Shown here: one piece after another, positions 12,001 through 64,000 of the stretch
Numbering within the stretch: position 1 is the first letter of the stretch
How the letters are laid out: each line of letters opens with the position of its first letter
From: Eledone cirrhosa
Lineage: Eukaryota
Assembly (NCBI GenBank): GCA_964016885.1
Contig: OZ024740.1
Coordinates: 7,254,001-7,318,000, forward strand
DNA: 64,000 nucleotides
Reading direction: 5' to 3'
Made by a program: the position numbers and the translations under genes
The notes under the pieces: model-generated
The model's database searches: none
What the model saw: the letters and a program-made list of their open reading frames with translations, nothing else
What the model was told of the DNA's origin: nothing

Positions 12001-12068
12001 TGTCAGTTTCTATTGGTATATGAGTTTCTATTGGTATGTCAGTTTCTATTGGTATATCAGTTTCAATT

Positions 12069-22100: not shown

Positions 22101-23705
22101 AGTATATCAGTTTCTATTGGTATATCAGTTTCGATTGGTATATCAGTTTCGATTGGTATATCAGTTTCTATTGGTATATCAGTTTCGATTGGTATGTCAG
22201 TTTCGATTAGTTTATCAGTTTCGATTGGTATGTCAGTTTCTATTGGTATGTCAGTTTCGATTAGTATATCAGTTCCTATTGGTATGTCAGTTTCGATTGG
22301 TATGTCAGTTTCTATTGGTATATCAGTTTCAATTGGTATGTCAGTTTCGATTGGTATATGAGTTTCTATTGGTATGTCAGTTTCTATTGGTATATAAGTT
22401 TCTATTGGTATATCAGTTTCCATTGGTATGTCAGATTCGATTGGAATGTCAGTTTCTATTGGTATATCAGTTTCCATTGGTATGTCAGATTCGATTGGAA
22501 TGTCAGTTTCTATTGGTATATCAGTTTCAATTGGTATGTTAGTTTCTATCGGTAAGTCAGCTTCAATTAGTATATCAGTTTCTATTGGTATGTCAGTTTC
22601 GATTGGTATATCAGTTTCAATTAGTATGTCAGTTTCTATTGGTATATCAATTTCGATTGGTATGTCAGTTTCGATTAGTATGTCAATTTCTATTGGAATG
22701 ACAGTTTGTATTGGTATATCAGTTTCGATTGGTATGTCAGTTTCGATTGGTATGTCAGTTTCGATTGGTATATCAGTTTCGATTGGTATATCAGTTTCTA
22801 TTGGTATATCAGTTTCGATTGGTATGTCAGTTTCAATTAGTTTATAAGTTTCTATTGGTATGTCAGTTTCTATTGGTATGTCAGTGTCGATTATTATATC
22901 AGTTACTATTGGTATGTCAGTTTCGATCGTTATATCAATTTCGATTGGTATCTCAGTGATAATTGGTATGTCAGTTTCGATTGGTATGTCAATTTCGATT
23001 AGTATATCAGTTTCTATTGGTATGTCAGTTTCTCTTGGTATATCAGTTTCTATTGGTATGTCAGTTTCTCTTGGTATATCAGCTTCGATTATTATATCAG
23101 TTACTATTGGTACATCAGTTTCTATTGGTATGTCAGTTTTGATTACTATATCAGTTACTATTGGAATGTCAGTTTCGATTGGTATGTCAATTTCGATTGG
23201 TATATCAGATTCGATTGGTATGTCAGTTTCGATTGGTATATCAGTTTCTATTGGTATGTCAGTTTCTATTGGTATATCAGTTTCGATTTGTATGTCAGTT
23301 TCTATTGGTATGTCAGTCTCGATAGGTATGTCAGTTTCTATTGGTATATCAGTTTCGATTGGTATGTCATTTTCGATAGGTATGTCAGTTTCTATGGGTA
23401 TATCAGTTTCGATTGGTATGTCAGATTTGATTGGAATATCAGTTTCTATTGGTATATCAGTTTCGATTGGTATGTCAGTTTCTATTGGTATGTCAGTTTC
23501 GATTAGTATATCAGTTTCCATTGGTATGTCTGTTTCTATTGGTATATCAGTTTTGATTGGTATATCAGTTTCGATTGGTATGTCAGTTTCTATTGGTATA
23601 TGAGTTTCTATTGGTATGTCAGTTTCTATTGGTATATCAGTTTCAATTGGTAGGTCAGTTTCTATTGGTATGTCAGTTTCGATTAGTATATCAGTTTCTA
23701 ATGTT

Positions 23706-35300: not shown

Positions 35301-38300
35301 TTGGTATCTCAGTTACGATTGGTATGTCAGTTTCGATTGGTATGTCAGTTTCGATTAGTATATCAGTTTCTATTGGTATGTCAGTTTCTCTTGGTATATC
35401 AGCTTCGATTGGTATATCAGTTTCGATTGGTATATCAGTTTCGATTTGTATATCAGCTTCGATTGGTACATCAGTTTCTATTGGTATGTCAGTTTTGATT
35501 ACTATATCAGTTACTATTGGAATGTCAGTTTCGATTGGTATGTCAATTTCGATTGGTATATCAGATTCGATTGGTATGTCAGTTTCTATTGGTATATCAG
35601 TTTCTATTGGTATGTCAGTTTTGATAGGTATGTCAGTTTCTATTGGTATATCAGTTTCGATTTGTATGTCAGTTTCTATTGGTATGTCAGTCTCGATAGG
35701 TATGTCAGTTTCTATTGGTATATCAGTTTCGATTGGTATGTCATTTTCGATAGGTATGTCAGTTTCTATTGGTATATCAGTTTCGATTGGTATGTCAGTT
35801 TCTATTGGTATATCAGTTTCGATTGGTATGTCAGGTTCGATTGGTATATCAGTTTCTATTGGAATGTCAGGTTCGATTGGTATATCAGTTTCGATTCGTA
35901 TGTCAATTTCGATTGGTATATCAGTTTCGATTAGTATTTCAGTTTCTAATGGTATATAAGTTTTGATTGGTACATCAGTTTCGATTGGTATGTCAGATTC
36001 GATTAGTATATCAGTTACTGTAGGTATGTCAGTTTCTATTGGTATATCACTTTCGACCGGTATATCAGTTCCGATTAGAATTTCAGTTTCTATTGGTATA
36101 TCAGTTTCAATTGGTAGGTCAGTTTCTATTGGTATGTCAGTTTCGATTAGTATATCAGTTTCTATTGGTATGTCAGTTTCAATTGGTATGTCAGTTTCTA
36201 TTGGTAAGTCAGCTTCGATTAGTATATCAGTTTCTATTGGTATATCAGTTTCGATTGGTATATCAGTTTCAATTAGTATGTCAGTTTCTATTGGTATATC
36301 AATTTCGATTGGTATGTCAGTTTCGATTAGTATGTCAATTTCTATTGGTATGTCAGTTTGTATTGGTATATCAGTTTCGATTGGTATTTCAGTTTCGATT
36401 GGTATGTCAGTTTCGATTGGTATATCAGTTTCGATTGGTATGTCAGTTTCTATTGGTATATCAGTTTCGATTGGTATATCAGTTTCAATTAGTATGTCAG
36501 TTTCTATTGGTATGTCAGTTTCGATTGGTATGTCAGTTTCGATTAGTATGTCAATTTCTATTGGTATGTCAGTTTGTATTAGTATATCAGTTTCGATTGG
36601 TATGTCAGTTTCGATTGGTATGTCAGGTTCGATTGGTATATCAGTTTCGATTGGTATAGAAGTTTCTATTGGTATGTCAGGTTCGATTGGTATATCAGTT
36701 TGTATTGGTATGTCAGTTTCGATTGGTATGTCAGGTTCGATTGGTATACCAGTTTCGATTGGTATGTCAATTTCGATTGGTATATCAGTTTCGATTAGTA
36801 TGTCAGTTTCTATTGTTATATTAGTTTTGATTGGTACATCAGTTTCGATTGGTATGTCAGTTTCGATTGGTATATCAGTTTCGATTGGTATGTCAGTTTC
36901 TATTGGTATATCAGCTTCGATTGGTATATCAGTTTCGATTGGTATGTCAGTTTCGATTGGTATGTCAGTCTCTATTGGTATGTCAGTTTCGATTATCATA
37001 TCAGTTACTATTGGTATGTCAGTTTTGATTGGTATGTCAGTTTCGATTGGTATGTCAGATTCGATTAGTATATCAGTTTCTATAGGTATGTCAGTTTCTA
37101 TTGGTATATCACTTTCGACTGGTATATCAGTTTCGATTAGAATGTTAGTTTCGATTGGTATTTCAGTGTCCATTGGTATATCAGTTTGGATTGATATATC
37201 AGTTTTCGATTAGTATGTCAGTTTCTATTGGTATGTCAGTTTCTATTGGTATATCAGTTTTGATTGGTATATCAGTATCGATTGGTATGTCAGTTTCTAT
37301 GGGTATATCAGTTTCAATTGGTATGTCAGTTTCTATGGGTATATCAGTTTCAATTGGTATGTCAGTTTCTATTGGTATGTCAGTTTCTATTGGTATATCT
37401 GTTTCGATTGGTATGTCAGTTTCTATGGGTATATCAGTTTCAATTGGTATGTCAGTTTCTATTGGTATATGAGTTTCTATTGGTATGTCAGTTTCTATTA
37501 GTATATCAGTTTCAATTGGTATGTTAGTTTCTATTGGTAAGTCAGCTTCGATTAGTATGTCAGTTTCGATTGGTATGTCAGTTTCTGTTGGTATATCATT
37601 TTCGATTGGTATGTCAGTTTCTATTGGTATGTCAGTGTCGATTATTATATCAGTAACTATTGGTATGTCAGTTTCGAATGGTATGTCAGTTTCGATTGGT
37701 ATCTCAGTTTCTATTGGTATGACAGGTTCGATTGGTATATCAGTTTCGATTGGTATATCAGTTTTGATTGGTATGTCAGTCTCGATTAGTATATCAGTTT
37801 CAAATAGTATGTCAGTTTCTATTGGTATATCAGTTTCGATTGGTATGTCAGTTTCGATTAGTATGTCAATTTATATTGGTATGTCAGTTTCAATTGGTAT
37901 ATCAGTTTCGATTGATATATCAGTTTCTATTGGTATGTCAGTTTCGATTGGTATGTCAGTTTCTATTGGTATATCAGTTTCGATTGGTATGTCAGTTTCT
38001 ATTGGTATATCAGTGTCGATTATTATATCAGTTTCTATTGGTATGTCAGTTTCGATTGTTATATCAATTTCGATTGGTATCTCAGTTACGATTGGTATGT
38101 CAGTTTCGATTGGTATGTCAATTTCGATTAGTATATCATTTTCTATTGGTATATCAGTTTCTCTTGGTATATCAGCTTCGATTGGTATATCAGTTTCGAT
38201 TGGTATATTAGTTTTGATTGGTATATCAGTTTCTATCGGTATGTCAGTTTTGATTATTATATCAGTTACTATTGGTATGTCAGTTTCGATTGGTATGTCA

Positions 38301-40840
38301 ATTTCGATTGGTATATCAGATTCGATTGGTATGTCAGTTTCTATTGGTATATCAGTTTCTATTGGTATGTCAGTTTCGATAGGTATGTCAGTTTCTATTG
38401 GTATATCAGTTTCGATTTGTATGTCAGTTTCTATTGGTATGTCAGTCTCGATAGGTATGTCAGTTTCTATTGGTATATCAGTTTCGATTGGTATGTCATT
38501 TTCGATAGGTATGTCAGTTTCTATTGGTATATCAGTTTCGATTGGTATGTCAGTTTCTATTGGTATATCAGTTTCGATTGGTATGTCAGGTTCGATTGGT
38601 ATATCAGTTTCTATTGGTATGTCAGGTTCGATTGGTATATCAGTTTCGATTGTTATGTCAATTTCGATTGGTATATCAGTTTCGATTAGTATGTCAGTTT
38701 CTATTGGTATATAAGTTTGATTTGTACATCAGTTTCGATTGGTATGTCAGTTTCGATTGGTATATCAGTTTCGATTGGTATGTCAGTTTCTATTGGTATA
38801 TCAGCTTCGATTGGTATATCAGTTTCGATTAGTATGTCAGTTTCCATTGGTATGTCAGTTTCGATTATTATATCAGTTTCTATTGGTATGTCAGTTTCGA
38901 TTGGTATGTCAGTTTCGATTGGTATATCAGTTTCGATTGGTATATCAGCTTCGATTGGTATGTCAGTTTCTATTGGTATATGAGTTTCTATTGGTATGTT
39001 AGTTTCTATTGGTAAGTCAGCTTCGATTAGTATGTCAGTTTCGATTGGTATGTCAGTTTCTGTTGGTATATCATTTTCGATTGGTGTGTCAGTTTCTATT
39101 GGTATGTCAGTGTGGATTATTATATCAGTAACTATTGGTATGTCAGTTTCGATTGGTACGTCAGTTTCGATTGGTATCTCAGTTTCTATTGGTATGACAG
39201 GTTCGATTGGTATGTCAGTTTCGATTGGTATATCAGTTTCGATTGGTATATCAGTTTCGATTGGTATGTCAGTTTCTATTGGTATATCGGTTTCGATTGG
39301 TATGTCATTTTCGATAGGTATGTGAGTTTCTATTGGTATATCAGTTTCGATTGGTATGTCAGTTCCGATTGGTATGTCAATCTCGATTGGTATGTCAGTT
39401 TCTATTGGTATATGAGTTTCGATTGGTATGTTAGTTTCTATTGGCAAGTCAGCTTCGATTAGTATGTCAGTTTCGATTGGTATGTCAGTTTCTGTTGGTA
39501 TATCATTTTCGATTGGTATGTCAGTTTCGATTGGTATGTCAGTTTCGATTGGTATCTCAGTTTCTATTGGTATGACAGGTTCGATTGGTATATCAGTTTC
39601 GATCGGTATCTCAGTTTCGATTGGTATGTCAGTTTCGATTGGTATGTCAGTTTCTAATGGTATATCAGTTTCGATTGGTATATCAGTTTCTATTAGTATG
39701 TCAACTTCGATAGGTATATCAGTTTCGATTGGTATGTCAGTGTCGATTATTATATCAGTAACTATTGGTATGTCAGTTTCGATCAGTATATCAGCTTCGA
39801 TTGGTATATCAGTTTCAATTAGTATGTCAGTTTCTGTTGGTATATCAGTTTCGATTGGTATGTCAGTTTCGATTAGTATGTCAATTTATATTGGTATGTC
39901 AGTTTCAATTGGTATATCAGTTTCGATTGTTATATCAGTTTCGATTGGTATGTCAGTTTCTATTGGTATGTCAGTTTCTATTGGTATATCAGTTTCGATT
40001 ATTATATCAGTTTCTATTGGTATATCAGTTTCGATTGGTATGTCAGTTTCTATTGGTATATGAGTTTCTATTGGTATGTCAGTTTCTATTGGTATGACAG
40101 GTTCGATTGGTATGTCAGTTTCGATTGGTATATCAGTTTCGATTGGTATATCAGTTTCGATTGGTATGTCAGTTTCTATTGGTATATCAGTTTCGATTGG
40201 TATGTCATTTTCGATAGGTATGTGAGTTTCTATTGGTATATCAGTTTCGATTGGTATGTCAGTTTCGATTGGTATGTCAATTTCGATTGGTATGTCAGTT
40301 TCGATTGCTATATCAGTTTCGATTGGTATATCAGTTTCGATTGGTATGTCAGTTTCTATTGGTATATCAGTTTCGATTTGTATGTCAGTTTCTATTGGTA
40401 TGTCAGTCTCGATAGGTATGTCAGTATCTATTGGTATGTCAGTTTCGATTGGTATGTCATTTTCGATAGGTATGTCAGTTTCTATTGGTATATCAGTTTC
40501 GATTGGTATGTCAGTTTCTATTGGTATATCAGCTTCGATTGGTATATCAGTTTCGATTAGTATGTCAGTTTCCATTGGTATGTCAGTTTCGATTAGTATA
40601 TCAGTTTCTATTGGTATGTCAGTTTCGATTGCTATGTCAGTTTCGATTGGTATATCAGTTTCGATTGGTATATCAGTTTCGATTAGTATGTCAGTTTCGA
40701 TTGGTATGTCAGTTTCTATTGGTATATCAGTTTCGATTGGTATGTCAGTTTCGATTGGTATATCAGTTGTGATTGCTATGTCAGTTTCTATTGGTATGTC
40801 AGTTTCGATTATCATATCAGTTACTATTGGTATGTAAGTT

Positions 40841-43800
40841 TTCAATCACTTCTATGTCCTAAATTCACACTATATCATATTTTCACCATTATATATCATA
40901 TCTTTTCTCTAAAAATCATATTTTCCCTATCACCGCATTTTCTCTATCGTAATTTCTTAAACAAAACAAATCTTGTATTTTCGTTTATTGTTAAATTATG
41001 CCCAATTTTTTCTCGATTCTTCTCTCCATTCGAACCCATTCATTCAATCACTTCTATGTCCTAAATTCACACTATATCATATTTTCACCATTATATATCA
41101 TATCTTTTCTCTAAAAATCATATTTTCCCTATCACCGCATTTTCTCTATCGTAATTTCTTAAACAAAACAAATCTTGTATTTTCGTTTATTGTTAAATTA
41201 TGCCCAATTTTTTCTCGATTCTTCTCTCCATTCGAACCCATTCATTCAATCACTTCTATGTCCTAAATTCACACTATATCATATTTTCACCATTATATAT
41301 CATATCTTTTCTCTAAAAATCATATTTTCCCTATCACCGCATTTTCTCTATCGTAATTTCTTAAACAAAACAAATCTTGTATTTTCGTTTATTGTTAAAT
41401 TATGCCCAATTTTTTCTCGATTCTTCTCCACATTCGAACCCATTCATTCAATCACTTCTATGTCCTAAATTCACACTATATCATATTTTCACCATTATAT
41501 ATCATATCTTTTCTCTAAAAATCATATTTTCCCTATCACCGCATTTTCTCTATCGTAATTTCTTAAACAAAACAAATCTTGTATTTTCGTTTATTGTTAA
41601 ATTATTCCCAATTTTTTCTCGATTCTTCTCTCCATTCGAACCCATTCATTCAATCACTTCTATGTCCTAAATTCACACTATATCATATTTTCACCATTAT
41701 ATATCATATCTTTTCTCTAAAAATCATATTTTCCCTATCACCGCATTTTCTCTATCGTAATTTCTTAAACAAAACAAATCTTGTATTTTCGTTTATTGTT
41801 AAATTATGCCCAATTTTTTCTCGATTCTTCTCTCCATTCGAACCCATTCATTCAATCACTTCTATGTCCTAAATTCACACTATATCATATTTTCACCATT
41901 ATATATCATATCTTTTCTCTAAAAATCATATTTTCCCTATCACCGCATTTTCTCTATCGTAATTTCTTAAACAAAACAAATCTTGTATTTTCGTTTATTG
42001 TTAAATTATGCCCAATTTTTTCTCGATTCTACTCTCCATTCGAACCCATTCATTCAATCACTTCTAGGTCCTAAATTCACACTATATCATATTTTCACCA
42101 ATATATATCATATCTTTTCTCTAAAAATCATATTTTCCCTATCACCGCATTTTCTCTATCGTAATTTCTTAAACAAAACAAATCTTGTATTTTCGTTTAT
42201 TGTTAAATTATGCCCAATTTTTTCTCGATTTTTCTCTCCATTCGAACCCATTCATTCAATCACTTCTATGTCCTAAATTCACACTATATCATATTTTCAC
42301 CATTATATATCATATCTTTTCTCTAAAAATCATATTTTCCCTATCACCGCATTTTCTCTATCGTAATTTCTTAAACAAAACAAATCTTGTATTTTCGTTT
42401 ATTGTTAAATTATGCCCAATTTTTTCTCGATTCTTCTCTCCATTCGAACCCATTCATTCAATCACTTCTATGTCCTAAATTCACACTATATCATATTTTC
42501 ACCATTATATATCATATCTTTTCTCTAAAAATCATATTTTCCCTATCACCGCATTTTCTCTATCGTAATTTCTTAAACAAAACAAATCTTGTATTTTCGT
42601 TTATTGTTAAATTATGCCCAATTTTTTCTCGATTCTTCTCTCCATTCGAACCCATTCATTCAATCACTTCTATGTCCTAAATTCACACTATATCATATTT
42701 TCACCATTATATATCATATCTTTTCTCTAAAAATCATATTTTCCCTATCACCGCATTTTCTCTATCGTAATTTCTTAAACAAAACAAATCTTGTATTTTC
42801 GTTTATTGTTAAATTATGCCCAATTTTTTCTCGATTCTTCTCTCCATTCGAACCCATTCATTCAATCACTTCTATGTCCTAAATTCACACTATATCATAT
42901 TTTCACCATTATATATCATATCTTTTCTCTAAAAATCATATTTTCCCTATCACCGCATTTTCTCTATCGTAATTTCTTAAACAAAACAAATCTTGTATTT
43001 TCGTTTATTGTTAAATTATGCCCAATTTTTTCTCGATTCTTCTCTCCATTCGAACCCATTCATTCAATCACTTCTATGTCCTAAATTCACACTATATCAT
43101 ATTTTCACCATTATATATCATATCTTTTCTCTAAAAATCATATTTTCCCTATCACCGCATTTTCTCTATCGTAATTTCTTAAACAAAACAAATCTTGTAT
43201 TTTCGTATATTGTTAAATTATGCCCAATTTTTTCTCGATTCTTCTCTCCATTCGAACCCATTCATTCAATCACTTCTATGTCCTAAATTCACACTATATC
43301 ATATTTTCACCATTATATATCATATCTTTTCTCTAAAAATCATATTTTCCCTATCACCGCATTTTCTCTATCGTAATTTCTTAAACAAAACAAATCTTGT
43401 ATTTTCGTTTATTGTTAAATTATGCCCAATTTTTTCTCGATTCTACTCTCCATTCGAACCCATTCATTCAATCACTTCTAGGTCCTAAATTCACACTATA
43501 TCATATTTTCACCATTATATATCATATCTTTTCTCTAAAAATCATATTTTCCCTATCACCGCATTTTCTCTATCGTAATTTCTTAAACAAAACAAATCTT
43601 GTATTTTCGTTTATTGTTAAATTATGCCCAATTTTTTCTCGATTCTTCTCTCCATTCGAACCCATTCATTCAATCACTTCTATGTCCTAAATTCACACTA
43701 TATCATATTTTCACCATTATATATCATATCTTTTCTCTAAAAATCATATTTTCTCTATCGTAATTTCTTAAACAAAACAAATCTTGTATTTTCGTTTATT

Positions 43801-46800
43801 GTTAAATTATGCCCAATTTTTTCTCGATTCTTCTCTCCATTCGAACCCATTCATTCAATCACTTCTATGTCCTAAATTCACACTATATCATATTTTCACC
43901 ATTATATATCATATCTTTTCTCTAAAAATCATATTTTCCCTATCACCGCATTTTCTCTATCGTAATTTCTTAAACAAAACAAATCTTGTATTTTCGTTTA
44001 TTGTTAAATTATGCCCAATTTTTTCTCGATTCTTCTCTCCATTCGAACCCATTCATTCAATCACTTCTATGTCCTAAATTCACACTATATCATATTTTCA
44101 CCATTATATATCATATCTTTTCTCTAAAAATCATATTTTCCCTATCACCGCATTTTCTCTATCGTAATTTCTTAAACAAAACAAATCTTGTATTTTCGTT
44201 TATTGTTAAATTATGCCCAATTTTTTCTCGATTCTTCTCTCCATTCGAACCCATTCATTCAATCACTTCTATGTCCTAAATTCACACTATATCATATTTT
44301 CACCATTATATATCATATCTTTTCTCTAAAAATCATATTTTCCCTATCACCGCATTTTCTCTATCGTAATTTCTTAAACAAAACAAATCTTGTATTTTCG
44401 TTTATTGTTAAATTATGCCCAATTTTTTCTCGATTCTACTCTCCATTCGAACCCATTCATTCAATCACTTCTATGTCCTAAATTCACACTATATCATATT
44501 TTCACCATTATATATCATATCTTTTCTCTAAAAATCATATTTTCCCTATCACCGCATTTTCTCTATCGTAATTTCTTAAACAAAACAAATCTTGTATTTT
44601 CGTTTATTGTTAAATTATGCCCAATTTTTTCTCGATTCTTCTCTCCATTCGAACCCATTCATTCAATCACTTCTATGTCCTAAATTCACACTATATCATA
44701 TTTTCACCATTATATATCATATCTTTTCTCTAAAAATCATATTTTCTCTATCGTAATTTCTTAAACAAAACAAATCTTGTATTTTCGTTTATTGTTAAAT
44801 TATGCCCAATTTTTTCTCGATTCTTCTCTCCATTCGAACCCATTCATTCAATCACTTCTATGTCCTAAATTCACACTATATCATATTTTCACCATTATAT
44901 ATCATATCTTTTCTCTAAAAATCATATTTTCCCTATCACCGCATTTTCTCTATCGTAATTTCTTAAACAAAACAAATCTTGTATTTTCGTTTATTGTTAA
45001 ATTATGCCCAATTTTTTCTCGATTCTTCTCTCCATTCGAACCCATTCATTCAATCACTTCTATGTCCTAAATTCACACTATATCATATTTTCACCATTAT
45101 ATATCATATCTTTTCTCTAAAAATCATATTTTCCCTATCACCGCATTTTCTCTATCGTAATTTCTTAAACAAAACAAATCTTGTATTTTCGTTTATTGTT
45201 AAATTATGCCCAATTTTTTCTCGATTCTTCTCTCCATTCGAACCCATTCATTCAATCACTTCTATGTCCTAAATTCACACTATATCATATTTTCACCATT
45301 ATATATCATATCTTTTCTCTAAAAATCATATTTTCCCTATCACCGCATTTTCTCTATCGTAATTTCTTAAACAAAACAAATCTTGTATTTTCGTTTATTG
45401 TTAAATTATGCCCAATTTTTTCTCGATTCTTCTCTCCATTCGAACCCATTCATTCAATCACTTCTATGTCCTAAATTCACACTATATCATATTTTCACCA
45501 TTATATATCATATCTTTTCTCTAAAAATCATATTTTCCCTATCACCGCATTTTCTCTATCGTAATTTCTTAAACAAAACAAATCTTGTATTTTCGTTTAT
45601 TGTTAAATTATTCCCAATTTTTTCTCGATTCTTCTCTCCATTCGAACCCATTCATTCAATCACTTCTATGTCCTAAATTCACACTATATCATATTTTCAC
45701 CATTATATATCATATCTTTTCTCTAAAAATCATATTTTCCCTATCACCGCATTTTCTCTATCGTAATTTCTTAAACAAAACAAATCTTGTATTTTCGTTT
45801 ATTGTTAAATTATGCCCAATTTTTTCTCGATTCTACTCTCCATTCGAACCCATTCATTCAATCACTTCTAGGTCCTAAATTCACACTATATCATATTTTC
45901 ACCATTATATATCATATCTTTTCTCTAAAAATCATATTTTCCCTATCACCGCATTTTCTCTATCGTATTTTCTTAAACAAAACAAATCTTGTATTTTCGT
46001 TTATTGTTAAATTATGCCCAATTTTTTCTCGATTTTTCTCTCCATTCGAACCCATTCATTCAATCACTTCTATGTCCTAAATTCACACTATATCATATTT
46101 TCACCATTATATATCATATCTTTTCTCTAAAAATCATATTTTCCCTATCACCGCATTTTCTCTATCGTAATTTCTTAAACAAAACAAATCTTGTATTTTC
46201 GTTTATTGTTAAATTATGCCCAATTTTTTCTCGATTCTTCTCTCCATTCGAACCCATTCATTCAATCACTTCTATGTCCTAAATTCACACTATATCATAT
46301 TTTCACCATTATATATCATATCTTTTCTCTAAAAATCATATTTTCCCTATCACCGCATTTTCTCTATCGTAATTTCTTAAACAAAACAAATCTTGTATTT
46401 TCGTTTATTGTTAAATTATGCCCAATTTTTTCTCGATTCTTCTCTCCATTCGAACCCATTCATTCAATCACTTCTATGTCCTAAATTCACACTATATCAT
46501 ATTTTCACCATTATATATCATATCTTTTCTCTAAAAATCATATTTTCCCTATCACCGCATTTTCTCTATCGTAATTTCTTAAACAAAACAAATCTTGTAT
46601 TTTCGTTTATTGTTAAATTATGCCCAATTTTTTCTCGATTCTTCTCTCCATTCGAACCCATTCATTCAATCACTTCTATGTCCTAAATTCACACTATATC
46701 ATATTTTCACCATTATATATCATATCTTTTCTCTAAAAATCATATTTTCCCTATCACCGCATTTTCTCTATCGTAATTTCTTAAACAAAACAAATCTTGT

Positions 46801-49800
46801 ATTTTCGTTTATTGTTAAATTATGCCCAATTTTTTCTCGATTCTTCTCTCCATTCGAACCCATTCATTCAATCACTTCTATGTCCTAAATTCACACTATA
46901 TCATATTTTCACCATTATATATCATATCTTTTCTCTAAAAATCATATTTTCCCTATCACCGCATTTTCTCTATCGTAATTTCTTAAACAAAACAAATCTT
47001 GTATTTTCGTTTATTGTTAAATTATGCCCAATTTTTTCTCGATTCTTCTCTCCATTCGAACCCATTCATTCAATCACTTCTATGTCCTAAATTCACACTA
47101 TATCATATTTTCACCATTATATATCATATCTTTTCTCTAAAAATCATATTTTCCCTATCACCGCATTTTCTCTATCGTAATTTCTTAAACAAAACAAATC
47201 TTGTATTTTCGTTTATTGTTAAATTATGCCCAATTTTTTCTCGATTCTTCTCTCCATTCGAACCCATTCATTCAATCACTTCTATGTCCTAAATTCACAC
47301 TATATCATATTTTCACCATTATATATCATATCTTTTCTCTAAAAATCATATTTTCCCTATCACCGCATTTTCTCTATCGTAATTTCTTAAACAAAACAAA
47401 TCTTGTATTTTCGTTTATTGTTAAATTATGCCCAATTTTTTCTCGATTCTTCTCTCCATTCGAACCCATTCATTCAATCACTTCTATGTCCTAAATTCAC
47501 ACTATATCATATTTTCACCATTATATATCATATCTTTTCTCTAAAAATCATATTTTCCCTATCACCGCATTTTCTCTATCGTAATTTCTTAAACAAAACA
47601 AATCTTGTATTTTCGTTTATTGTTAAATTATGCCCAATTTTTTCTCGATTCTACTCTCCATTCGAACCCATTCATTCAATCACTTCTATGTCCTAAATTC
47701 ACACTATATCATATTTTCACCATTATATATCATATCTTTTCTCTAAAAATCATATTTTCTCTATCGTAATTTCTTAAACAAAACAAATCTTGTATTTTCG
47801 TTTATTGTTAAATTATGCCCAATTTTTTCTCGATTCTTCTCTCCATTCGAACCCATTCATTCAATCACTTCTATGTCCTAAATTCACACTATATCATATT
47901 TTCACCATTATATATCATATCTTTTCTCTAAAAATCATATTTTCCCTATCACCGCATTTTCTCTATCGTGATTTCTTAAACAAAACAAATCTTGTATTTT
48001 CGTTTATTGTTAAATTATGCCCAATTTTTTCTCGATTCTTCTCTCCATTCGAACCCATTCATTCAATCACTTCTATGTCCTAAATTCACACTATATCATA
48101 TTTTCACCATTATATATCATATCTTTTCTCTAAAAATCATATTTTCCCTATCACCGCATTTTCTCTATCGTAATTTCTTAAACAAAACAAATCTTGTATT
48201 TTCGTTTATTGTTAAATTATGCCCAATTTTTTCTCGATTCTTCTCTCCATTCGAACCCATTCATTCAATCACTTCTATGTCCTAAATTCACACTATATCA
48301 TATTTTCACCATTATATATCATATCTTATCTCTAAAAATCATATTTTCCCTATCACCGCATTTTCTCTATCGTAATTTCTTAAACAAAACAAATCTTGTA
48401 TTTTCGTTTATTGTTAAATTATGCCCAATTTTTTCTCGATTCTTCTCTCCATTCGAACCCATTCATTCAATCACTTCTATGTCCTAAATTCACACTATAT
48501 CATATTTTCACCATTATATATCATATCTTTTCTCTAAAAATCATATTTTCCCTATCACCGCATTTTCTCTATCGTAATTTCTTAAACAAAACAAATCTTG
48601 TATTTTCGTTTATTGTTAAATTATGCCCAATTTTTTCTCGATTCTTCTCTCCATTCGAACCCATTCATTCAATCACTTCTATGTCCTAAATTCACACTAT
48701 ATCATATTTTCACCATTATATATCATATCTTTTCTCTAAAAATCATATTTTCCCTATCACCGCATTTTCTCTATCGTAATTTCTTAAACAAAACAAATCT
48801 TGTATTTTCGTTTATTGTTAAATTATGCCCAATTTTTTCTCGATTCTTCTCTCCATTCGAACCCATTCATTCAATCACTTCTATGTCCTAAATTCACACT
48901 ATATCATATTTTCACCATTATATATCATATCTTTTCTCTAAAAATCATATTTTCCCTATCACCGCATTTTCTCTATCGTAATTTCTTAAACAAAACAAAT
49001 CTTGTATTTTCGTTTATTGTTAAATTATGCCCAATTTTTTCTCGATTCTACTCTCCATTCGAACCCATTCATTCAATCACTTCTATGTCCTAAATTCACA
49101 CTATATCATATTTTCACCATTATATATCATATCTTTTCTCTAAAAATCATATTTTCCCTATCACCGCATTTTCTCTATCGTAATTTCTTAAACAAAACAA
49201 ATCTTGTATTTTCGTTTATTGTTAAATTATGCCCAATTTTTTCTCGATTCTTCTCTCCATTCGAACCCATTCATTCAATCACTTCTATGTCCTAAATTCA
49301 CACTATATCATATTTTCACCATTATATATCATATCTTTTCTCTAAAAATCATATTTTCCTTATCACCGCATTTTCTCTATCGTAATTTCTTAAACAAAAC
49401 AAATCTTGTATTTTCGTTTATTGTTAAATTATGCCCAATTTTTTCTCGATTCTTCTCTCCATTCGAACCCATTCATTCAATCACTTCTATGTCTTAAATT
49501 CACACTATATCATATTTTCACCATTATATATCATATCTTTTCTCTAAAAATCATATTTTCCCTATCACCGCATTTTCTCTATCGTAATTTCTTAAACAAA
49601 ACAAATCTTGTATTTTCGTTTATTGTTAAATTATGCCCAATTTTTTCTCGATTCTTCTCTCCATTCGAACCCATTCATTCAATCACTTCTATGTCCTAAA
49701 TTCACACTATATCATATTTTCACCATTATATATCATATCTTTTCTCTAAAAATCATATTTTCCCTATCACCGCATTTTCTCTATCGTAATTTCTTAAACA

Positions 49801-50676
49801 AAACAAATCTTGTATTTTCGTTTATTGTTAAATTATGCCCAATTTTTTCTCGATTCTTCTCTCCATTCGAACCCATTCATTCAATCACTTCTATGTCCTA
49901 AATTCACACTATATCATATTTTCACCATTATATATCATATCTTTTCTCTAAAAATCATATTTTCCCTATCACCGCATTTTCTCTATCGTAATTTCTTAAA
50001 CAAAACAAATCTTGTATTTTCGTTTATTGTTAAATTATGCCCAATTTTTTCTCGATTCTTCTCTCCATTCGAACCCATTCATTCAATCACTTCTATGTCC
50101 TAAATTCACACTATATCATATTTTCACCATTATATATCATATCTTTTCTCTAAAAATCATATTTTCCCTATCACCGCATTTTCTCTATCGTAATTTCTTA
50201 AACAAAACAAATCTTGTATTTTCGTTTATTGTTAAATTATGCCCAATTTTTTCTCGATTCTTCTCTCCATTCGAACCCATTCATTCAATCACTTCTATGT
50301 CCTAAATTCACACTATATCATATTTTCACCATTATATATCATATCTTTTCTCTAAAAATCATATTTTCCCTATCACCGCATTTTCTCTATCGTAATTTCT
50401 TAAACAAAACAAATCTTGTATTTTCGTTTATTGTTAAATTATGCCCAATTTTTTCTCGATTCTACTCTCCATTCGAACCCATTCATTCAATCACTTCTAT
50501 GTCCTAAATTCACACTATATCATATTTTCACCATTATATATCATATATTTTCTCTAAAAATCATATTTTCCCTATCACCGCATTTTCTCTATCGTAATTT
50601 CTTAAACAAAACAAATCTTGTATTTTCGTTTATTGTTAAATTATGCCCAATTTTTTCTCGATTCTTCTCTCCATTC
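40841..50676. repeat. 202-bp AT-rich tandem satellite, about 49 near-identical copies (three shortened to 185 bp)
   Basis: Unit ttcaatcacttctatgtcc...cgaacccattca starts at 40841, 41043 and so on. ORF starts step by 202 bp, or by 387 bp across deleted units. The array ends at ...ctctccattc (50676). Confidence 0.99.
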
Positions 50677-53540
50677 CAAATTACAATGGGTTCGGTGGGG
50701 TAGGAATCATGGTAGCAGAAAAGTGGGCAGATAAGATAATAGACGTAAATAGAGTGAACGACAGAATAATTAAAATAAGACTTGTCCTCAATAAAACTAC
50801 GGTGACAGTAATATCTGCGTACGCACCCCAATCCGGACTGCCCCGCGCTATAAAAGACAGATTCTACGAGACACTGATGCTCGCTACCTCCCAAATAACC
50901 GACAGTGACTATATAGTTATTGCAGGCAACCTAAATGGTCACGTTGGACAACATTGTGACGGCTATGACGGAATCCATGGAGGCTATGGGTTCGGTACTA
51001 GAAATGAGGAAGGCTCCAGAATCCTGGAATTCTGCGACGCAAATAACTTAACTATCTGTAACACTAACTTCAAAAAACGAGACAATCACTTGATCACCTA
51101 TAGATCGGGGGAACACACAAGCCAGGTAGATTATATCCTTACCAGAAGACGTGACAGAGTGTCTGTTGTTAACACTAAATCCCACCCCCATGAAGAATTC
51201 ACCTCCCAACATAGACTGATAATTAGCGACCTCATAGTCAGGACGAGACGTACTAGACAGCGAAAGAGGACTATCCTCAGGAGAAAAATATGGAAGCTAA
51301 AGGACCCCATAGCCAGAAATAAATTTCAAAGCAAATTACTTGACGCTTTCGACAGTAAGGAAGAGCAATTAGAGTCGTATAATATAGAGGAACAGTGGGA
51401 ATTCCTGAGAGCAAACCTGCTGACGGCGGCAGACGAAGTCTGTGGCTGGAGCAGGCCTGTAGGTAGGAGGAGAGTAACATGGTGGTGGAACAGTAAGGTG
51501 GAGGAGTCAATTAAGGCCAAAAAGCAGGCTTGGAAAGTATGGCGGGATGGGGGAAGTAGAGAAGACTATCAAGTGGCCAGGAGGGAAGCTAGGAGACAAG
51601 TGTACTTCGCAAGAAGGGAAGCAGAGGAAAGAAAGTTCAAGCATGTTCTAAAACGTGAGGACCAAAAACGTGAGGTGTTCAGGATTGCCAGGCAATGTGT
51701 CAAAGAAAACCGTGATATTGTCGGGGAGAAGTGTGTACTTAACGATGATGGCATACTTGCCATCACCGACGCTGATAAGAAGGTAGCTTGGAAGTGTCAC
51801 TACGAAAGGCTTCTAAATGAGGAGAACAAATGGGAGAAAGACAGTCTCCCCCAGATCGATCCAATAGAGGGACCAGCAGTGTTAGTTGAAGGTAGTATAA
51901 TAAGTAAGGCAATCAAAGATATGAAGACGGGTAAGGCGGCTGGGCCTTCGGAAATAGTTGCTGAGATGCTGAAGGCATCTGGTTCGGTGGGACACACCAT
52001 GGTCACCCGGATAGTTAACCAAGTCGTACAGAATGGGGTTGTTCCGAAGGAATGGCGTAGCAGCATCATCGTTAACTGCTATAAGGGAAAAGGAGATGCC
52101 CTAGATATGAGTAACTATAGAGGCATTAAATTAATCGACCAGGTCATGAAGGTCACGGAAAAAGTAATAGCGCAACTAATCAGAGAGAGAATTGATCTAG
52201 ATGAAATGCAGTTCGGGTTTGTGTCAGGCAAAAGTACCACAGACGCTCTTTTCATTGTACGACAACTACAGGAGAAGTACCTAGCTAAAAGTAAACCCCT
52301 ATACTTAGCTTTTGTCGACTTGGAGAAAGCCTTCGACAGAGTCCCCCGTTCCATTATCTGGTGGTCTCTTAGAAAACTAGGTGTTGACGAATGGCTTGTG
52401 AGAGCTATACAAGCCATGTATAAAGAAACAGTCAGTAAGGTTAGAATTAACAACGAATATAGTGAAGAGTTTAGCGTAAAAGTTGGTGTCCATCAGGGCT
52501 CTGTACTTAGCCCCCTACTATTTATTATTGCCCTTCAGGCTATAACAGAGGAGTTCAAGACCGGCTGCCCATGGGAACTCCTATACGCAGATGATCTAAC
52601 GCTCATAGCTGAATCAATGACCGATCTAGAGAAGAAATTCCAAACGTGGAAGCACGGCCTAGAATCAAAAGGCCTTAAAATTAACCTGGCTAAGACTAAA
52701 GTTCTAGTTTGTAGGAAAGAAAATAAGGCGGCGGTCCCATCGGGGAAATGGCCATGCTCAGTGTGTAGGAAAGGCGTAGGTAGAAACTCCATTTTATGTC
52801 CCAAATGCAAAGTATGGGTGCATAAAAGATGTAGTGGGATCACAGGTAAGCTAACTAAGAACATAGATTTTACATGTGGCCGGTGCTCTGGTGCAATAAG
52901 TAGCAGCAAGTGCCCACAAAATACTAGCTCCTTCAACTGCGCAGAGGGTTCTATAGAAATAGTGGACAGCTTCCGTTATCTGGGTGACAAAATCAGCAGT
53001 GGGGGAGGGTGCTCTGAAAGTACAGTAGCTAGAGTCAGAACTGGATGGAAAAAGTTCAGAGAGCTTATACCACTATTAGCCGCTAGAGGGTTCTCCCTAA
53101 AAATGAAAGGCAGGTTATACGATGCCTGCATACGAACAGCAATGCTGCATGGCAGTGAGACCTGGGCATTGTGTGCAGAGGATATACGCAGACTAGAGAG
53201 GAACGAAGCTTGCATGCTCCGCTGGATGTGTAACAGTAATATACGTGAACAGCAAAGCATAAACGAACTAAGGAAAAAATTAGAAATAAGAGGGATCAGA
53301 TGTTGTTTACTCGAGAGAAGGCTACGTTGGTACGGTCACGTGATGCGCATGAAAGACGACAGCTGTATAACAAAGTGCAGGGCAATAAAGATAGACGGTA
53401 GCCACGGAGTAGGCAGACCCAGAAAAACATGGGACGAGCTGATAAATTCCGACCTCACACGCTTACACCTCTCCAAGACAATGTCACTGGACCGAGACCT
53501 TTGGCGGTACTCAGTAATAGAGAAGACCCGCCTTACCTAA
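50643..53540 (+). CDS. LINE endonuclease-reverse transcriptase ORF, 965 aa, N-terminally truncated; first ~11 codons come from the 202-bp satellite
   Basis: APE motifs GVGI, SAYAPQ, G(N)LNGHVG, VDYIL, SQHRL. RT motifs NYRGIKL, QFGF, FVDLEKAFDRV, QGSVLSPLLF, YADD (52584-52595), KTK, FRYLG. No internal stop or frameshift. Expression unknown. Confidence 0.9.
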   Translation: MPNFFSILLSIPNYNGFGGVGIMVAEKWADKIIDVNRVNDRIIKIRLVLNKTTVTVISAYAPQSGLPRAIKDRFYETLMLATSQITDSDYIVIAGNLNGHVGQHCDGYDGIHGGYGFGTRNEEGSRILEFCDANNLTICNTNFKKRDNHLITYRSGEHTSQVDYILTRRRDRVSVVNTKSHPHEEFTSQHRLIISDLIVRTRRTRQRKRTILRRKIWKLKDPIARNKFQSKLLDAFDSKEEQLESYNIEEQWEFLRANLLTAADEVCGWSRPVGRRRVTWWWNSKVEESIKAKKQAWKVWRDGGSREDYQVARREARRQVYFARREAEERKFKHVLKREDQKREVFRIARQCVKENRDIVGEKCVLNDDGILAITDADKKVAWKCHYERLLNEENKWEKDSLPQIDPIEGPAVLVEGSIISKAIKDMKTGKAAGPSEIVAEMLKASGSVGHTMVTRIVNQVVQNGVVPKEWRSSIIVNCYKGKGDALDMSNYRGIKLIDQVMKVTEKVIAQLIRERIDLDEMQFGFVSGKSTTDALFIVRQLQEKYLAKSKPLYLAFVDLEKAFDRVPRSIIWWSLRKLGVDEWLVRAIQAMYKETVSKVRINNEYSEEFSVKVGVHQGSVLSPLLFIIALQAITEEFKTGCPWELLYADDLTLIAESMTDLEKKFQTWKHGLESKGLKINLAKTKVLVCRKENKAAVPSGKWPCSVCRKGVGRNSILCPKCKVWVHKRCSGITGKLTKNIDFTCGRCSGAISSSKCPQNTSSFNCAEGSIEIVDSFRYLGDKISSGGGCSESTVARVRTGWKKFRELIPLLAARGFSLKMKGRLYDACIRTAMLHGSETWALCAEDIRRLERNEACMLRWMCNSNIREQQSINELRKKLEIRGIRCCLLERRLRWYGHVMRMKDDSCITKCRAIKIDGSHGVGRPRKTWDELINSDLTRLHLSKTMSLDRDLWRYSVIEKTRLT
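52755..52886 (+). other. C4HC3 PHD-like zinc finger inside the LINE ORF
   Basis: CSVC-x10-CPKC-KVWV-H-KR-C-x14-CGRC, located between the RT KTK motif and the FRYLG motif. Confidence 0.8.
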
Positions 53541-53699
53541 ATACAAAGTAAAAACCTACTACAGTCAGTAGGCACCTCTATCAAAACACACCCCCGTCCC
53601 ACCACCTCCACACCGCCCCTTTCAATGTAAAGTTATGTTGGTCCCACAACATCCAGGCCGAAACAAATGAGATCGTGTAGGTGTCACGACAAAAAACAC

Positions 53700-53931
53700 A
53701 CAGTCCACGCTGTAAATGTGGCCGTGTAGGCAACACGGTAAAAACCTCCCAGCCCCACACTGTAAATGTGGTTGGTGTTAGGAAGGGCATCCAGCTGTAG
53801 AAAACCCGCCAGACAGTCCACGCTGTAATGTGGCCGTGTAGGCAACACGGTAAAAACCTCCCAGCCCCACACTGTAAATGTGGTTGGTGTTAGGAAGGGC
53901 ATCCAACTGTAGAAAACCCGCCAGACAGTCC
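53700..53931 (+). repeat. 113/112-bp tandem duplication in the LINE 3' UTR
   Basis: ACAGTCC at 53700, 53813 and 53925. The two copies differ by one indel (tgtaaatg/tgtaatg) and one substitution (ccagc/ccaac). Confidence 0.95.
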
Positions 53932-54015
53932 TATGCGAGCAAGACAACCACTCTTGCCTCAAGTGGGAAAACCCCCGTCCAAACCCATGCAAGCGTGGAA
54001 CACGGACACTAAACC

Positions 54016-54036
54016 TGATGATGATGATGATGATGA
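54016..54036 (+). repeat. (TGA)7 LINE 3' tail
   Basis: ...actaaacc tgatgatgatgatgatgatga, followed directly by tatcagtttc of the 18-bp satellite. Confidence 0.92.
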
Positions 54037-54502
54037 TATCAGTTTCTATTGGTATGTCAGTTTCTATTGGTATATCAGTTTCAATTGGTATGTCAGTTTC
54101 TATTGGTATGTGAGTTTCTATTGGTATGTCAGTTTCTATTGGTATATCAGTTTCAATTGGTATGTTAGTTTCTATTGGTAAGTCTGCTTCGATTAGTATG
54201 TCAGTTTTGATTGGTATGTCAGTTTCTATTGGTATATCATTTTCGATTGGTATGTCAGTTTCTATTGGTATATCAGTGTAGATTATTATATCAGTAACTA
54301 TTGGTATGTCAGTTTCGATTGGTATGTCAGTTTCGATTGGTATCTCAGTTTCTATTGGTATGACAGGTTCGATTGGTATATCAGTTTCGATTGGTATGTC
54401 AGTTTCTAATGGTATATCAGTTTCGATTGGTATATCAGTTTCTATTAGTATGTCAGTTTCTATAGGTATATCAGTTTTGATTGGTATGTCTGTCGATTAT
54501 TA

Positions 54503-54689
54503 GGGCGGTGGATTGGCAGTATCGGTAGAGGGTCGGGCGCCATGCTTTGAAGCATAGAGTTACCTCCCTTTATGATCTGAGTTCAAATCCCGCCGAGGTT
54601 AACTTTGCCTTTCATCCTTACGGGGTCGATAAAATAAAGTACCAGTAATACACTGGGTAATTGCTGGCCTTGTGCCTAAAGTAGAAACA
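54503..54689 (+). mobile_element. tRNA-derived SINE, 187 bp, with 7-bp TSD ATTATTA; probable Nin/Deu-type core
   Basis: TSD at 54496-54502 and 54690-54696, with an empty paralogous site at 56614-56620. A and B boxes present. GGCGG/CCGCC acceptor-like stem. Core GCCTTTCATCCTTACGGGGTCGATAAAATAAAGTACCAG resembles the Nin-DC domain (from recall). Confidence 0.92.
54514..54590 (+). promoter_or_regulatory. RNA polymerase III internal promoter (A box and B box) of the SINE
   Basis: A box TGGCAGTATCGG at 54514-54525 and B box GTTCAAATCC at 54581-54590. Confidence 0.8.
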
Positions 54690-57600
54690 ATTATTATATC
54701 AGTAACTATTGTTATGTCAGTTTCGATCAGTATATCAGCTTCGATTGGTATATCAGTTTCAATTAGTATGTCAGTTTCTATTGGTATATCAGTTTCGATT
54801 GGTATGTCAGTTTCGATTAGTATGTCAATTTATATTGGTATGTCAGTTTCAATTGGTATATCAGTTTCGATTGTTATATCAGTTTCTATTGGTATGTCAG
54901 TTTCAATTGGTATGTCAGTTTCTATTGGTATATCAGTTTCGATTGGTATGTCAGTTTCTATTGGTATGTCAGTGTAGATTATAATATCAGTTACTATTGG
55001 TATGTCAGTTTCGATTGTTATATCAATTTCGATTGGTATCTCAGTTTCGATTGGTACGTCAGTTTCGATTGGTATGTCAATTTCGATTAGTATATCAGTT
55101 TCTATTGGTATGTCAGTTTCTCTTGGTATATCAGCTTCGATTGGTATATCAGTTTCGATTGGTATATTAGTTTTGATTGGTATATCAGTTTCTATTGGTA
55201 TGTCAGTTTTGATTATTATATCAGTTACTATTGGTATGCCAGTTTCGATTAGTATGTCAATTTCGATTGGTATATCAGATTCGATTGGTATGTCAGTTTC
55301 TATTGGTATATCAGTTTCTATTGGTATGTCAGTTTTGATAGGTATGTCAGTTTCTATTGGTATATCAGTTTCGATTTGTATGTCAGTTTCTATTGGTATG
55401 TCAGTCTCGATAGGTATGTCACTTTCTATTGGTATATCAGTTTCGATTGGTATGTCATTTTCGATAGGTATGTCAGTTTCTATTGGTATATCAGTTTCGA
55501 TTGGTATGTCAGTTTCTATTGGTATATCAGCTTCGATTGGTATATCAGTTTCGATTAGTATGTCAGTTTCCATTGGTATGTCAGTTTCGATTAGTATATC
55601 AGTTTCTATTGGTATGTCAGTTTCGATTGGTATGTCAGTTTTGATTGGTATATCAGTTTCGATTGGTATATCAGTTTCGATTGGTATGTCAGTTTCTATT
55701 GGTATATCAGTTTCGATTGGTATGTCAGTTTCGATTGGTATATCAGTTTTGATTGGTATGTCAGTTTCTATTGGTATGTCAGTTTCGATTATCATATCAG
55801 TTACTATTGGTATGTAAGTTTTGATTGGTATGTCAGTTTCGATTGGTATTTCAGATTCGATTAGTATATCAGTTTCTGTAGGTATGTCAGTTTCTATTGG
55901 TATATCACTTTCGACTGGTATGTCAGTTTTGATTAGTATATCAGTTTCGATTGGTATGTCATTTTCGATTAGTATATCAGTTTCTATTCGTATGTCAGTT
56001 TCTATTGGTATATCAGTTTCGATTGGTATATCAGTTTCGATTGGTATGTCAGTTTCGATTGGTATATCAGTTTCGATTGGTATGTCAGTTTCTATAGGTA
56101 CGTCAGTTTCGATTGGTATGTCAGTTTCGTTTGGTATGTCAGTTTCGATTAGTATATCAGTTTCTATTGGTATGTCAGTTTCTATTGGTATATCAGTTTC
56201 AATTGGTATGTCAGTTTCTATTGGTATGTGAGTTTCTATTGGTATGTCAGTTTCTATTGGTATATCAGTTTCAATTGGTATGTTAGTTTCTATTGGTAAG
56301 TCAGCTTCGATTAGTATGTCAGTTTTGATTGGTATGTCAGTTTCTATTGGTATATCATTTTCGATTGGTATGTCAGTTTCTATTGGTATGTCAGTGTAGA
56401 TTATTATATCAGTAACTATTGGTATGTCAGTTTCGATTGGTATGTCAGTTTCGATTGGTATCTCAGTTTCTATTGGTATGACAGGTTCGATTGGTATATC
56501 AGTTTCAATTGGTATGTCAGTTTCTAATGGTATATCAGTTTCGATTAGTATATCAGTTTCTATTAGTATGTCAGTTTCTATAGGTATATCAGTTTTGATT
56601 GGTATGTCTGTCGATTATTATATCAGTAACTATTGTTATGTCAGTTTCGATCAGTATATCAGCTTCGATTGGTATATCAGTTTCAATTAGTATGTCAGTT
56701 TCTATTGGTATGTCAGTTTCGATTGGTATGTCAGTTTCGATTAGTATGTCAATTTATATTGGTATGTCAGTTTCAATTGGTATATCAGTTTCGATTGTTA
56801 TATCAGTTTCAATTGGTATGTCAGTTTCTATTGGTATATCAGTTTCGATTGGTATGTCAGTTTCTATTGGTATGTCAGTGTAGATTATTATATCAGTTTC
56901 GATTGGTATGTCAGTTTCGATTGGTATATCAATTTCGATTAGTATATCAGTTTCTATTGGCATGTCAGTTTCCCTTGGTATATCAGCTTCGATTGGTATA
57001 TCAGTTTCGATTGGTATATCAGTTTCTATTGGTATGTCTGTTTTGATTATTATATCAGTTACTATTGTTATGCCAGTTTCGATTGGTATGTCAATTTCGA
57101 TTGGTATATCAGATTCGATTGGTATGTCAGTTTCTATTGGTATATCAGTTTCTATTGGTATGTCAGTTTTGATAGGTATGTCAGTTTCTATTGGTATATC
57201 AGTTTCGATTTGTATGTCAGTTTCTATTGGTATGTCAGTCTCGATAGGTATGTCATTTTCGATAGGTATGTCAGTTTCTATTGGTATATCAGTTTCGATT
57301 GGTATGTCAGTTTCTATTGGTATATCAGCTTCGATTGGTATATCAGTTTCGATTAGTATGTCACTTTCCATTGGTATGTCAGTTTCGATTAGTATATCAG
57401 TTTCTATTGGTATGTCAGTTTCGATTGGTATGTCAGTTTCGATTGGTATATCAGTTTCGATTGGTATATCAGTTTCGATTGGTATGTCAGTTTCTATTGG
57501 TGTATCAGTTTCGATTGGTATGTCAGTTTCGATTGGTATATCAGTTTTGATTGGTATGTCAGTTTCTATTGGTATGTCAGTTTCGATTATCATATCAGTT

Positions 57601-63600: not shown

Positions 63601-64000
63601 TCAGTTTCAATTGGTATGTCAGTTTCTATTGGTATATGAGTTTCTATTGGTATGTCAGTTTCTGTTGCTATATCAGTTTCAATTGGTATGTTAGTTTCTG
63701 TTGGTAAGTCAGCTTCGATTAGTATGTCAGTTTCGATTGGTATGACAGGTTTGATTGGTATATCAGTTTCGATTGGTATCTCAGTTTCTATTGGTATGAC
63801 AGGTTTGATTGGTATATCAGTTTCGATTGGTATCTCAGTTTCGATTGGTATGTCAGTTTCGATTGGTATGTCAGTTTCGATTAGTATGTCAGTTTCTAAT
63901 GGTATATCAGTTTCGATTGGTATATCAGTTTCTATTAGTATGTCAGTTTCGATAGGTATATCAGTTTTGATTGGTATGTCTGTCGATTATTATTGTTATG

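What the first reader, a model, noticed from the sequence alone, without database searches (positions are those of the whole stretch)
40841..54036. 13.2-kb block of 202-bp satellite plus RTE LINE appears inserted into the 18-bp array with a target deletion: possible LINE-mediated satellite seeding
Seen: the left junction (...attatcatatcagttactattggtatgtaagtttt|) matches a downstream paralog ending at 55822. The right junction (|atatcagtttctattgg...tatgtgag...ggtaagtc) matches that paralog from 56154. The flanks are therefore collinear and co-oriented, with about 331 bp missing (about 460 bp against the paralog at 63104-63562). There is no TSD, only 2-nt microhomologies (tt on the left, at on the right), and no 202-bp units lie 3' of the LINE. 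Inference: a single event is possible, in which reverse transcription primed in the 18-mer array and then template-switched onto 202-bp satellite RNA or circular DNA, carrying one satellite into another. Alternatives are ectopic recombination, deletion after two separate insertions, or misassembly.
Basis: partly seen in the sequence, partly recalled or inferred. Interest (0 to 1): 0.75.

Follow-up and report, generated by a model that had tools for sequence, protein, structure and literature searches.

The report
LINE's own leader grown satellite-sized
The 202-base "satellite" is the repeated front end that a young jumping gene (a LINE) carries all over this genome; this copy landed in an unrelated 18-base satellite, lost a linker, and its front-end repeats likely multiplied in place to 49, much as is known for mouse L1 elements.

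Summary
The anatomy is as described, but the block is one element, not two. At 18 of 18 other loci picked by the 202-mer, it sits about 510 bp upstream of the same LINE, in the same orientation. So do 13 of 15 monomer clusters taken in order along C1. The genome holds only 861 exact monomer cores and 173 exact linker junctions, so the assembly shows no donor satellite. The 202-mer is the 5' leader repeat of a young RTE-like family (median leader 0.5 kb; up to 26 kb). This copy has a unique deletion of at least 689 bp that fuses monomers to the ORF. One variant recurs about every 7 units and occurs nowhere else (7 of 7), which points to growth in place. A target deletion of at least 331 bp holds; lacking a TSD is common in this family. 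Template switching onto foreign satellite RNA or eccDNA is not supported. Closest precedent: mouse L1 monomer promoters, one with 50 monomers. This scan noted the same before for other RTE leaders in this genome. Promoter function is untested.

The parts
1..40842 (+). 18-bp host satellite, left flank; last 2 bases (TT) shared with the leader
40841..50676 (+). 5' leader array of the LINE: 48 full 202-bp monomers plus a 192-bp last one (three monomers lack 17 bp; they start at 43671, 44664 and 47677); no ~285-bp spacer module in this copy; variant T179A in units 6, 13, 18, 25, 34, 41, 48
50677..50694 (+). Deletion junction, unique in the genome: at least 689 bp lost (monomer end, last 163-bp monomer, ~513-bp linker, about the first 120 of 1073 codons); three substitutions within 16 bp; 50685-50694 is an exact inverted copy of monomer positions 189-198
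50678..53540 (+). Remainder of the single ORF: partial APE endonuclease, reverse transcriptase, PHD finger; frame open to the stop
53541..54015 (+). 3' UTR with a 112-bp internal duplication (53700-53931) that most sister copies share
54016..54037 (+). (GAT)n tail; final AT shared with the target
54036..63980 (+). 18-bp host satellite, right flank; 55823-56153 is the paralog of the segment missing at the insertion

Best explanation
The 13.2-kb block is one copy of a young single-ORF LINE whose 5' leader is built of tandem repeats; it inserted into the 18-bp satellite with loss of target DNA, lost at least 689 bp between leader and ORF, and its monomers likely multiplied in place from about 7 to 49. 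Shown: the family architecture is [(202-bp monomer)n + ~285-bp spacer]m + monomers + ~510-bp linker + ORF + (GAT)n; none of the 78 loci scored has a unique 5' end; the junction is unique; array variants are private. Inferred steps: (1) target-primed reverse transcription primed by tail-target pairing at AT; (2) 5' attachment by TT microhomology upstream, deleting at least 331 bp; (3) linker loss guided by fold-back pairing of the monomer end with the ORF, at or after insertion; (4) later multi-unit duplications (unequal exchange or slippage); (5) the repeated leader likely serves as a renewable promoter and 5' buffer, with a start site predicted in the spacer, which this copy lacks.
For: All 16 other loci and both have the array ending at monomer position 163, then the linker, then a body 98-99.6% identical (the C21 body is rearranged after 968 bp). 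Linkers align almost without change in 16 copies. 13 of 15 clusters among the first 100 of 861 monomer sites have the exact linker 199-403 bp downstream; the other two are this window and a 26.5-kb array that ends at a run of N. From the LINE side, 44 of 58 linker-anchored copies carry at least one monomer junction; median leader 507 bp, 12 of 58 at least 1 kb, 2 of 58 at least 3 kb. The window body differs from 17 sisters at only 12-23 of ~3,300 bases; 33 of 70 copies keep an ORF of at least 1000 aa. The junction occurs once in the genome; 75 other bodies carry the undeleted sequence there. T179A: 7 of 7 genome matches lie in this array, spaced 5-9 units. Recurring private variants occur in 4 of the 6 arrays with 29 or more units. 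The best of 13,022 monomer/body 30-mer duplexes (-28.7 kcal/mol) lies at both deletion endpoints (post hoc). 12 of 22 5' ends that fall in the spacer lie within 22 bp (4 of 200,000 simulations; post hoc). Four of 5 other insertions into tandem targets lack a TSD. The monomer-to-linker join is also in contigs built from public runs of organisms A and B. A mouse L1 with 50 monomers is ascribed to unequal crossing-over (PMC6454616, passages).
Against: Substitution density does not show the array to be younger than the body: 14 distinct substitutions against 17.8 expected, P=0.22. Growth therefore happened early, or partly before insertion. Two of the six longest arrays (C5, 45 units; L118, 29 units) have no recurring private variant. 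The 17-bp deletion is not strictly private (3 of 4 matches here, 1 in a single monomer on C12). The 5'-end cluster could be a reverse-transcriptase stop rather than a start site. The RTE label rests on architecture, not on a tree.
Confidence: 0.82

Rival explanations
1. Same element, but the ~10-kb leader was already long in a source copy (absent from this assembly) and was retrotransposed whole, or was amplified during insertion by repeated template jumps.
For: The array's substitution density is compatible with the body's age. Leaders of 8-26 kb exist at other loci and could be sources. Leader expansion during second-strand priming is a published model for mouse L1 (PMC6454616, passage).
Against: Nested shared variants (T179A x7, T13G x3, C177T x2, G158T x2) need mutation between rounds of duplication. 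T179A and the junction occur at no other locus. Only 2 of 58 sampled copies have leaders of 3 kb or more.
Confidence: 0.12
2. One reading: reverse transcription switched from the LINE RNA onto RNA or circular DNA of an independent 202-bp satellite.
For: The array-body junction here is non-canonical and unique. A jump from the ORF to leader monomers of the same or a sister RNA cannot be told from a deletion.
Against: No independent satellite in the assembly: 861 cores in 3.0 Gb, nearly all that were checked attached to the LINE. The orientation and order are those of the intact element.
Confidence: 0.02
3. Misassembly, or ectopic recombination joining a LINE-leader array from elsewhere to the 18-mer array.
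For: One other leader array ends at a run of N, so these arrays can trouble assembly. The left flank is an older paralog (93.8%), so later exchange within the 18-mer array may have changed the deletion size.
Against: The junctions share only 2 bases, whereas chimeric joins normally need long homology (general knowledge). The flanks are collinear. The array has its own periodic variants. Two further copies sit in the same 18-mer satellite (L045, L069).
Confidence: 0.04

Closest known systems
Mouse L1Md monomer promoters (A, Gf, Tf); PMC6454616 (Background section and passages); PMC5381506 (passages)
   Same: Tandem ~200-bp monomers at the 5' end, joined to the ORF by a tether; copy number varies (mouse means 2.7-3.1); 5' monomer truncated with a common truncation site; a rare 50-monomer array ascribed to unequal crossing-over.
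   Different: Here a single-ORF RTE-like element in an invertebrate-type genome, not L1. The leader is AT-rich (28% GC), not a CpG island. It has two nested levels (202-bp monomer inside a ~490-bp module). Arrays reach 25-26 kb. Promoter activity is not shown.
Ogre LTR-retrotransposon-derived satellites of Lathyrus sativus (PMC7004042, abstract) and PisTR-A (PMC9659126, passages)
   Same: Short tandem arrays carried inside a retrotransposon that occasionally expand to satellite length.
   Different: Those are LTR elements (3' UTR arrays for PisTR-A) with pericentromeric expansion; here a non-LTR 5' leader, still attached to its element.
L1 insertions with target-site deletion (PMC1920257, abstract)
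   Same: Insertion without TSD, with loss of target DNA.
   Different: Those lack endonuclease signatures. This copy keeps an intact tail and 3' end, and blunt or slightly deleted junctions look common in this family (4 of 5).
Template-switch chimeras such as U6/L1 (recalled, no call)
   Same: A non-coding 5' part fused to a LINE 3' part in one insertion.
   Different: The 5' part here is the element's own leader, not a separate cellular RNA.

Membership tests
RTE-clade LINE | Single ORF with APE endonuclease and RT, no ORF1 (feature list recalled) | tested here: met
   Intact sister ORF of 1073 aa: Exo_endo_phos 72-295, RVT_1 597-797, PHD 813-856; best PDB hits are L1 ORF2p and R2; only repeats lie upstream
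RTE-clade LINE | 3' microsatellite-like tail | tested here: met
   (GAT)n in the window and in the sister 3' ends printed
RTE-clade LINE | RT groups with reference RTE/BovB elements in a tree | not tested
   No named references were at hand; the 120 listed homologues (36-53% identity, same domains) carry no clade names. RTE-like is therefore by architecture only.
RTE-clade LINE | TSD with the thymine-stretch signature of PMC6007223 (abstract and Introduction) | tested here: inconclusive
   Most copies sit in (TA)n, where a TSD cannot be read; 4 of 5 tandem-target copies show none and one fits an 11-12 bp duplication
Mouse L1Md monomer-type promoter | Tandem ~200-bp monomers 5' of a tether, variable number, no unique 5' end | tested here: met
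   (78 loci)
Mouse L1Md monomer-type promoter | Common 5' truncation site marking the start of transcription | tested here: inconclusive
   12 of 22 spacer-located 5' ends lie within 22 bp; no dominant site in the 202-mer itself; an RT stop is not excluded
Mouse L1Md monomer-type promoter | Monomers have promoter activity | not testable with these tools
   Needs CAGE or reporter assays
Mouse L1Md monomer-type promoter | L1 clade (ORF1 + ORF2) with CpG-rich monomers | tested here: not met
   Single ORF; 28% GC. It works like these promoters in layout but is not a member.
Independent satellite DNA family | Long arrays that exist apart from a transposon | tested here: not met
   861 cores genome-wide; 18 of 18 and 13 of 15 attached to the LINE; one array unresolved at a run of N
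Template-switch chimeric retrocopy | 5' part derived from a separate cellular RNA or DNA | tested here: not met
   The 5' part is the element's own leader

The most novel reading that the evidence does not exclude
RTE-like LINEs of this genome have independently evolved the mouse-L1 solution: an endless, self-renewing 5' leader whose ~490-bp module holds the start site. Several lineages carry non-homologous leaders, and growth in place turns single copies into 10-26 kb promoter batteries and nascent satellites. A built-in fold-back between leader and ORF can cut out the linker and leave an array fused to an endonuclease-less, RT-intact frame, as here.
Probability: 0.35. Interest if true: 0.62.

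Novelty: new variant of a known kind. Interest (0 to 1): 0.4.

Why it matters
It replaces an exotic satellite-capture story with a testable general route: a LINE's own 5' repeats are sown at at least 173 sites and some grow 20- to 50-fold beyond the median. How monomeric leaders are kept up against 5' truncation is described as unclear even in mouse (PMC6454616, abstract passage). A very young family (about 0.5% divergence) with leaders from under 0.1 kb to 26 kb gives a natural series for separating growth during insertion from growth afterwards. It is also a warning for annotation: such arrays would be filed as satellites. Four paper searches and a looser fifth listed no report of monomeric 5' leaders in RTE elements or cephalopods. 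I saw only their listings plus passages of PMC10294476, PMC12628747 and PMC9659126; the library lacks most subscription journals and Repbase, and no supplements were read.

Tried and rejected
Read support for the junctions is unresolved. Only Logan contigs were laid; no listed piece of X1, X5, X4 or X6 bridged 50676 (26 shown, 74 not shown), nor did any listed piece. The runs may be other individuals and records are filtered, so this is no evidence either way. No RNA holder listed. Ribozyme or structured RNA in the leader: Rfam gave one chance hit (E 4.2); a monomer dimer folds no better than shuffles (z -0.44). Dating the array against the body by substitution density: not significant. A deletion subfamily: rejected, the junction occurs once. 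An imperfect 11-bp TSD in the window: rejected, the two sides differ at 3 bases and come from different units. The first target-phase run used wrong periods for two loci and was redone. One search's leader walk broke early on a few loci; one search is the one used. The protein atlas gave no result for the ORF or a homologue. ARAGORN found no tRNA in the SINE-like insert. Sequence look-ups of monomer and linker among earlier findings were blank. Sampling: the 58 copies are from the first listed of 173 linker sites (C1 to C3:316 Mb), leaving out six fetched earlier and two at C2:284 Mb, which shifts the sample slightly towards short leaders; the 18 array-side loci came from the best hits. An earlier count said 17 loci; the correct count is 16.
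Full report
Observation. The window holds an 18-bp satellite interrupted at 40841-54037 by 48.9 copies of a 202-bp unit and a 3.36-kb LINE with a (GAT)n tail. The LINE frame encodes part of an APE endonuclease, an RT and a PHD finger. Both junctions have 2-base microhomology and no TSD. The flanks are collinear: the right flank matches 56154 at 463 of 467 bases and the left flank matches 55822 at 176 of its last 180. Three paralog pairs show 331, 368 or 457 bp between these two motifs. Because the left unit is only 93.8% identical to the right one, 331 bp is a minimum. The description is confirmed.

What the 202-mer is. A search of the own genome found it at many dispersed places. I fetched 16 of them, then two long ones. 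In all 18 the array ends at monomer position 163, followed by a ~510-bp linker and the same LINE body at 98-99.6% identity, in the same orientation; the C21 body is rearranged after 968 bp. A position-ordered check is less biased: of 15 clusters among the first 100 monomer sites on C1, 13 have the exact linker 199-403 bp downstream, one is this window, and one is a 26.5-kb array ending at a run of N. The genome holds 861 exact monomer cores and 173 exact linker junctions, so the assembly has no large donor satellite. From the LINE side, 44 of 58 linker-anchored copies carry at least one monomer junction; the median leader is 507 bp, 12 reach 1 kb and 2 reach 3 kb. The leader is nested: runs of 202-bp monomers separated by a ~285-bp spacer, sometimes in higher-order periods of ~695 or 1295 bp. 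None of the 78 loci scored shows a unique 5' end. The family is very young: 12-23 differences in ~3,300 bases, and 33 of 70 copies keep an ORF of 1000 aa or more. The monomer-to-linker join also appears in contigs of public runs labelled organism A and organism B, and the monomer in organism C, so the layout is not an artefact of this assembly.

What is special in this copy. It has lost at least 689 bp, from monomer position 192 to about codon 120 of the ORF. The junction occurs once in the genome. Three substitutions lie within 16 bp of it, and one makes an exact 10-bp inverted copy of the monomer bases at the breakpoint. Of 13,022 monomer/body 30-mer pairs, the most stable duplex joins exactly these two endpoints. 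This was noticed after the fact, so it is a hint, but it suggests that the deletion was guided by a fold-back in RNA or single-stranded DNA. Whether it happened at insertion or later cannot be told.

How the array grew. T179A recurs in 7 units, 5-9 units apart, and all 7 exact genome matches are here. T13G (x3), C177T (x2) and G158T (x2) are nested in that pattern. Recurring private variants occur in 4 of the 6 arrays with 29 or more units. This fits repeated multi-unit duplication of a block of about 7 monomers at this locus. Against it, the array's substitution density is not lower than the body's (14 against 17.8 expected, P=0.22), and the 17-bp deletion also occurs once on C12. I put growth in place well ahead of transfer of a ready-made 10-kb leader, without excluding the latter.

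Target site. Most copies sit in (TA)n. In five other copies inside tandem targets the phase can be read: four are blunt or lack up to 5 bp modulo the period, and one, in the same 18-mer satellite, fits an 11-12 bp duplication. A missing TSD is therefore common in this family; only the size of the deletion is unusual. L1 insertions with target deletion are published (PMC1920257, abstract).

Function of the leader (inferred). Among 22 5' ends that fall in the spacer, 12 lie within 22 bp, against 4 of 200,000 simulations. In mouse L1 such common truncation sites are read as start sites (PMC6454616, passages). An RT stop is the alternative. If the start is in the spacer, this copy, which has no spacer, would lack it. 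Rfam and folding gave no sign of a ribozyme.

Comparison and novelty. The layout is that of mouse L1 monomer promoters, including a published 50-monomer array ascribed to unequal crossing-over. It fails membership: single ORF, AT-rich leader. Retrotransposon-internal repeats that grow into satellites are known from Ogre elements, and LINE UTRs are named as satellite sources in a review (PMC12628747, passages). RTE-like is an architectural label; no tree was built. I reached this reading before opening earlier notes; three unreviewed notes report the same phenomenon for leaders of 400-600 bp in this genome, while my monomer and linker found no sequence match among them. They are not independent support, but I saw one such case myself: an 85%-identical relative in L033 has a duplicated leader with no blast match to this one.

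Verdict. Real feature; first reading partly supported; new variant of a known kind; interest 0.40.

Noticed in passing
window 54503-54699: A ~190-bp SINE-like insert in the 18-mer array with an apparent 7-bp TSD, absent from the 98.8% identical paralog at 56620, so it is younger than that duplication. ARAGORN finds no tRNA. The SINE label is recalled.
   Followed up: partly
window 50643-53540: The deletion fuses an ATG in the last monomer in frame to the body, giving a 965-aa frame with intact RT but without the N-terminal part of the endonuclease.
   Followed up: no
L033:6790-7370 (minus strand): An 85%-identical relative of the LINE carries a different duplicated leader (two copies 73% alike with gaps) with no blast match to the 202-mer or spacer, suggesting leader replacement between subfamilies.
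   Followed up: partly
L122-L125 (G000 C1, about 365.7 Mb): A leader array of at least 26.5 kb with 36 spacer modules in ~695/848-bp periods; it ends at a run of N, so its LINE body is not seen.
   Followed up: partly
L052-L056 (G000 C21, 31.53-31.56 Mb): A 24.6-kb leader (107 monomers, nested higher-order periods) whose LINE body turns into an inverted segment after 968 bp, with no adjoining 3' end.
   Followed up: partly
L045:4640-8970 and L069: Two more copies of the family lie in the same 18-mer satellite 1.1 and 2.1 Mb away; L045 uses the same 3' phase as the window copy.
   Followed up: partly
runs X4 and X6 laid on window 50590-50740: Contigs labelled organisms B and C match the monomer at 0-1 differences in 56-87 bases: very close relatives, horizontal transfer or mixed samples; not resolved.
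   Followed up: no
window 1-40842 and 54039-63980, minus strand: The 18-mer reads as long open IETDIP-repeat frames (up to 1017 aa); likely a by-product of a unit without a stop in that frame. The array extends at least 20 kb on each side of the window.
   Followed up: no
L137:1327-11680: Two copies lie back to back with leaders 1.7 kb apart, pointing away from each other.
   Followed up: no
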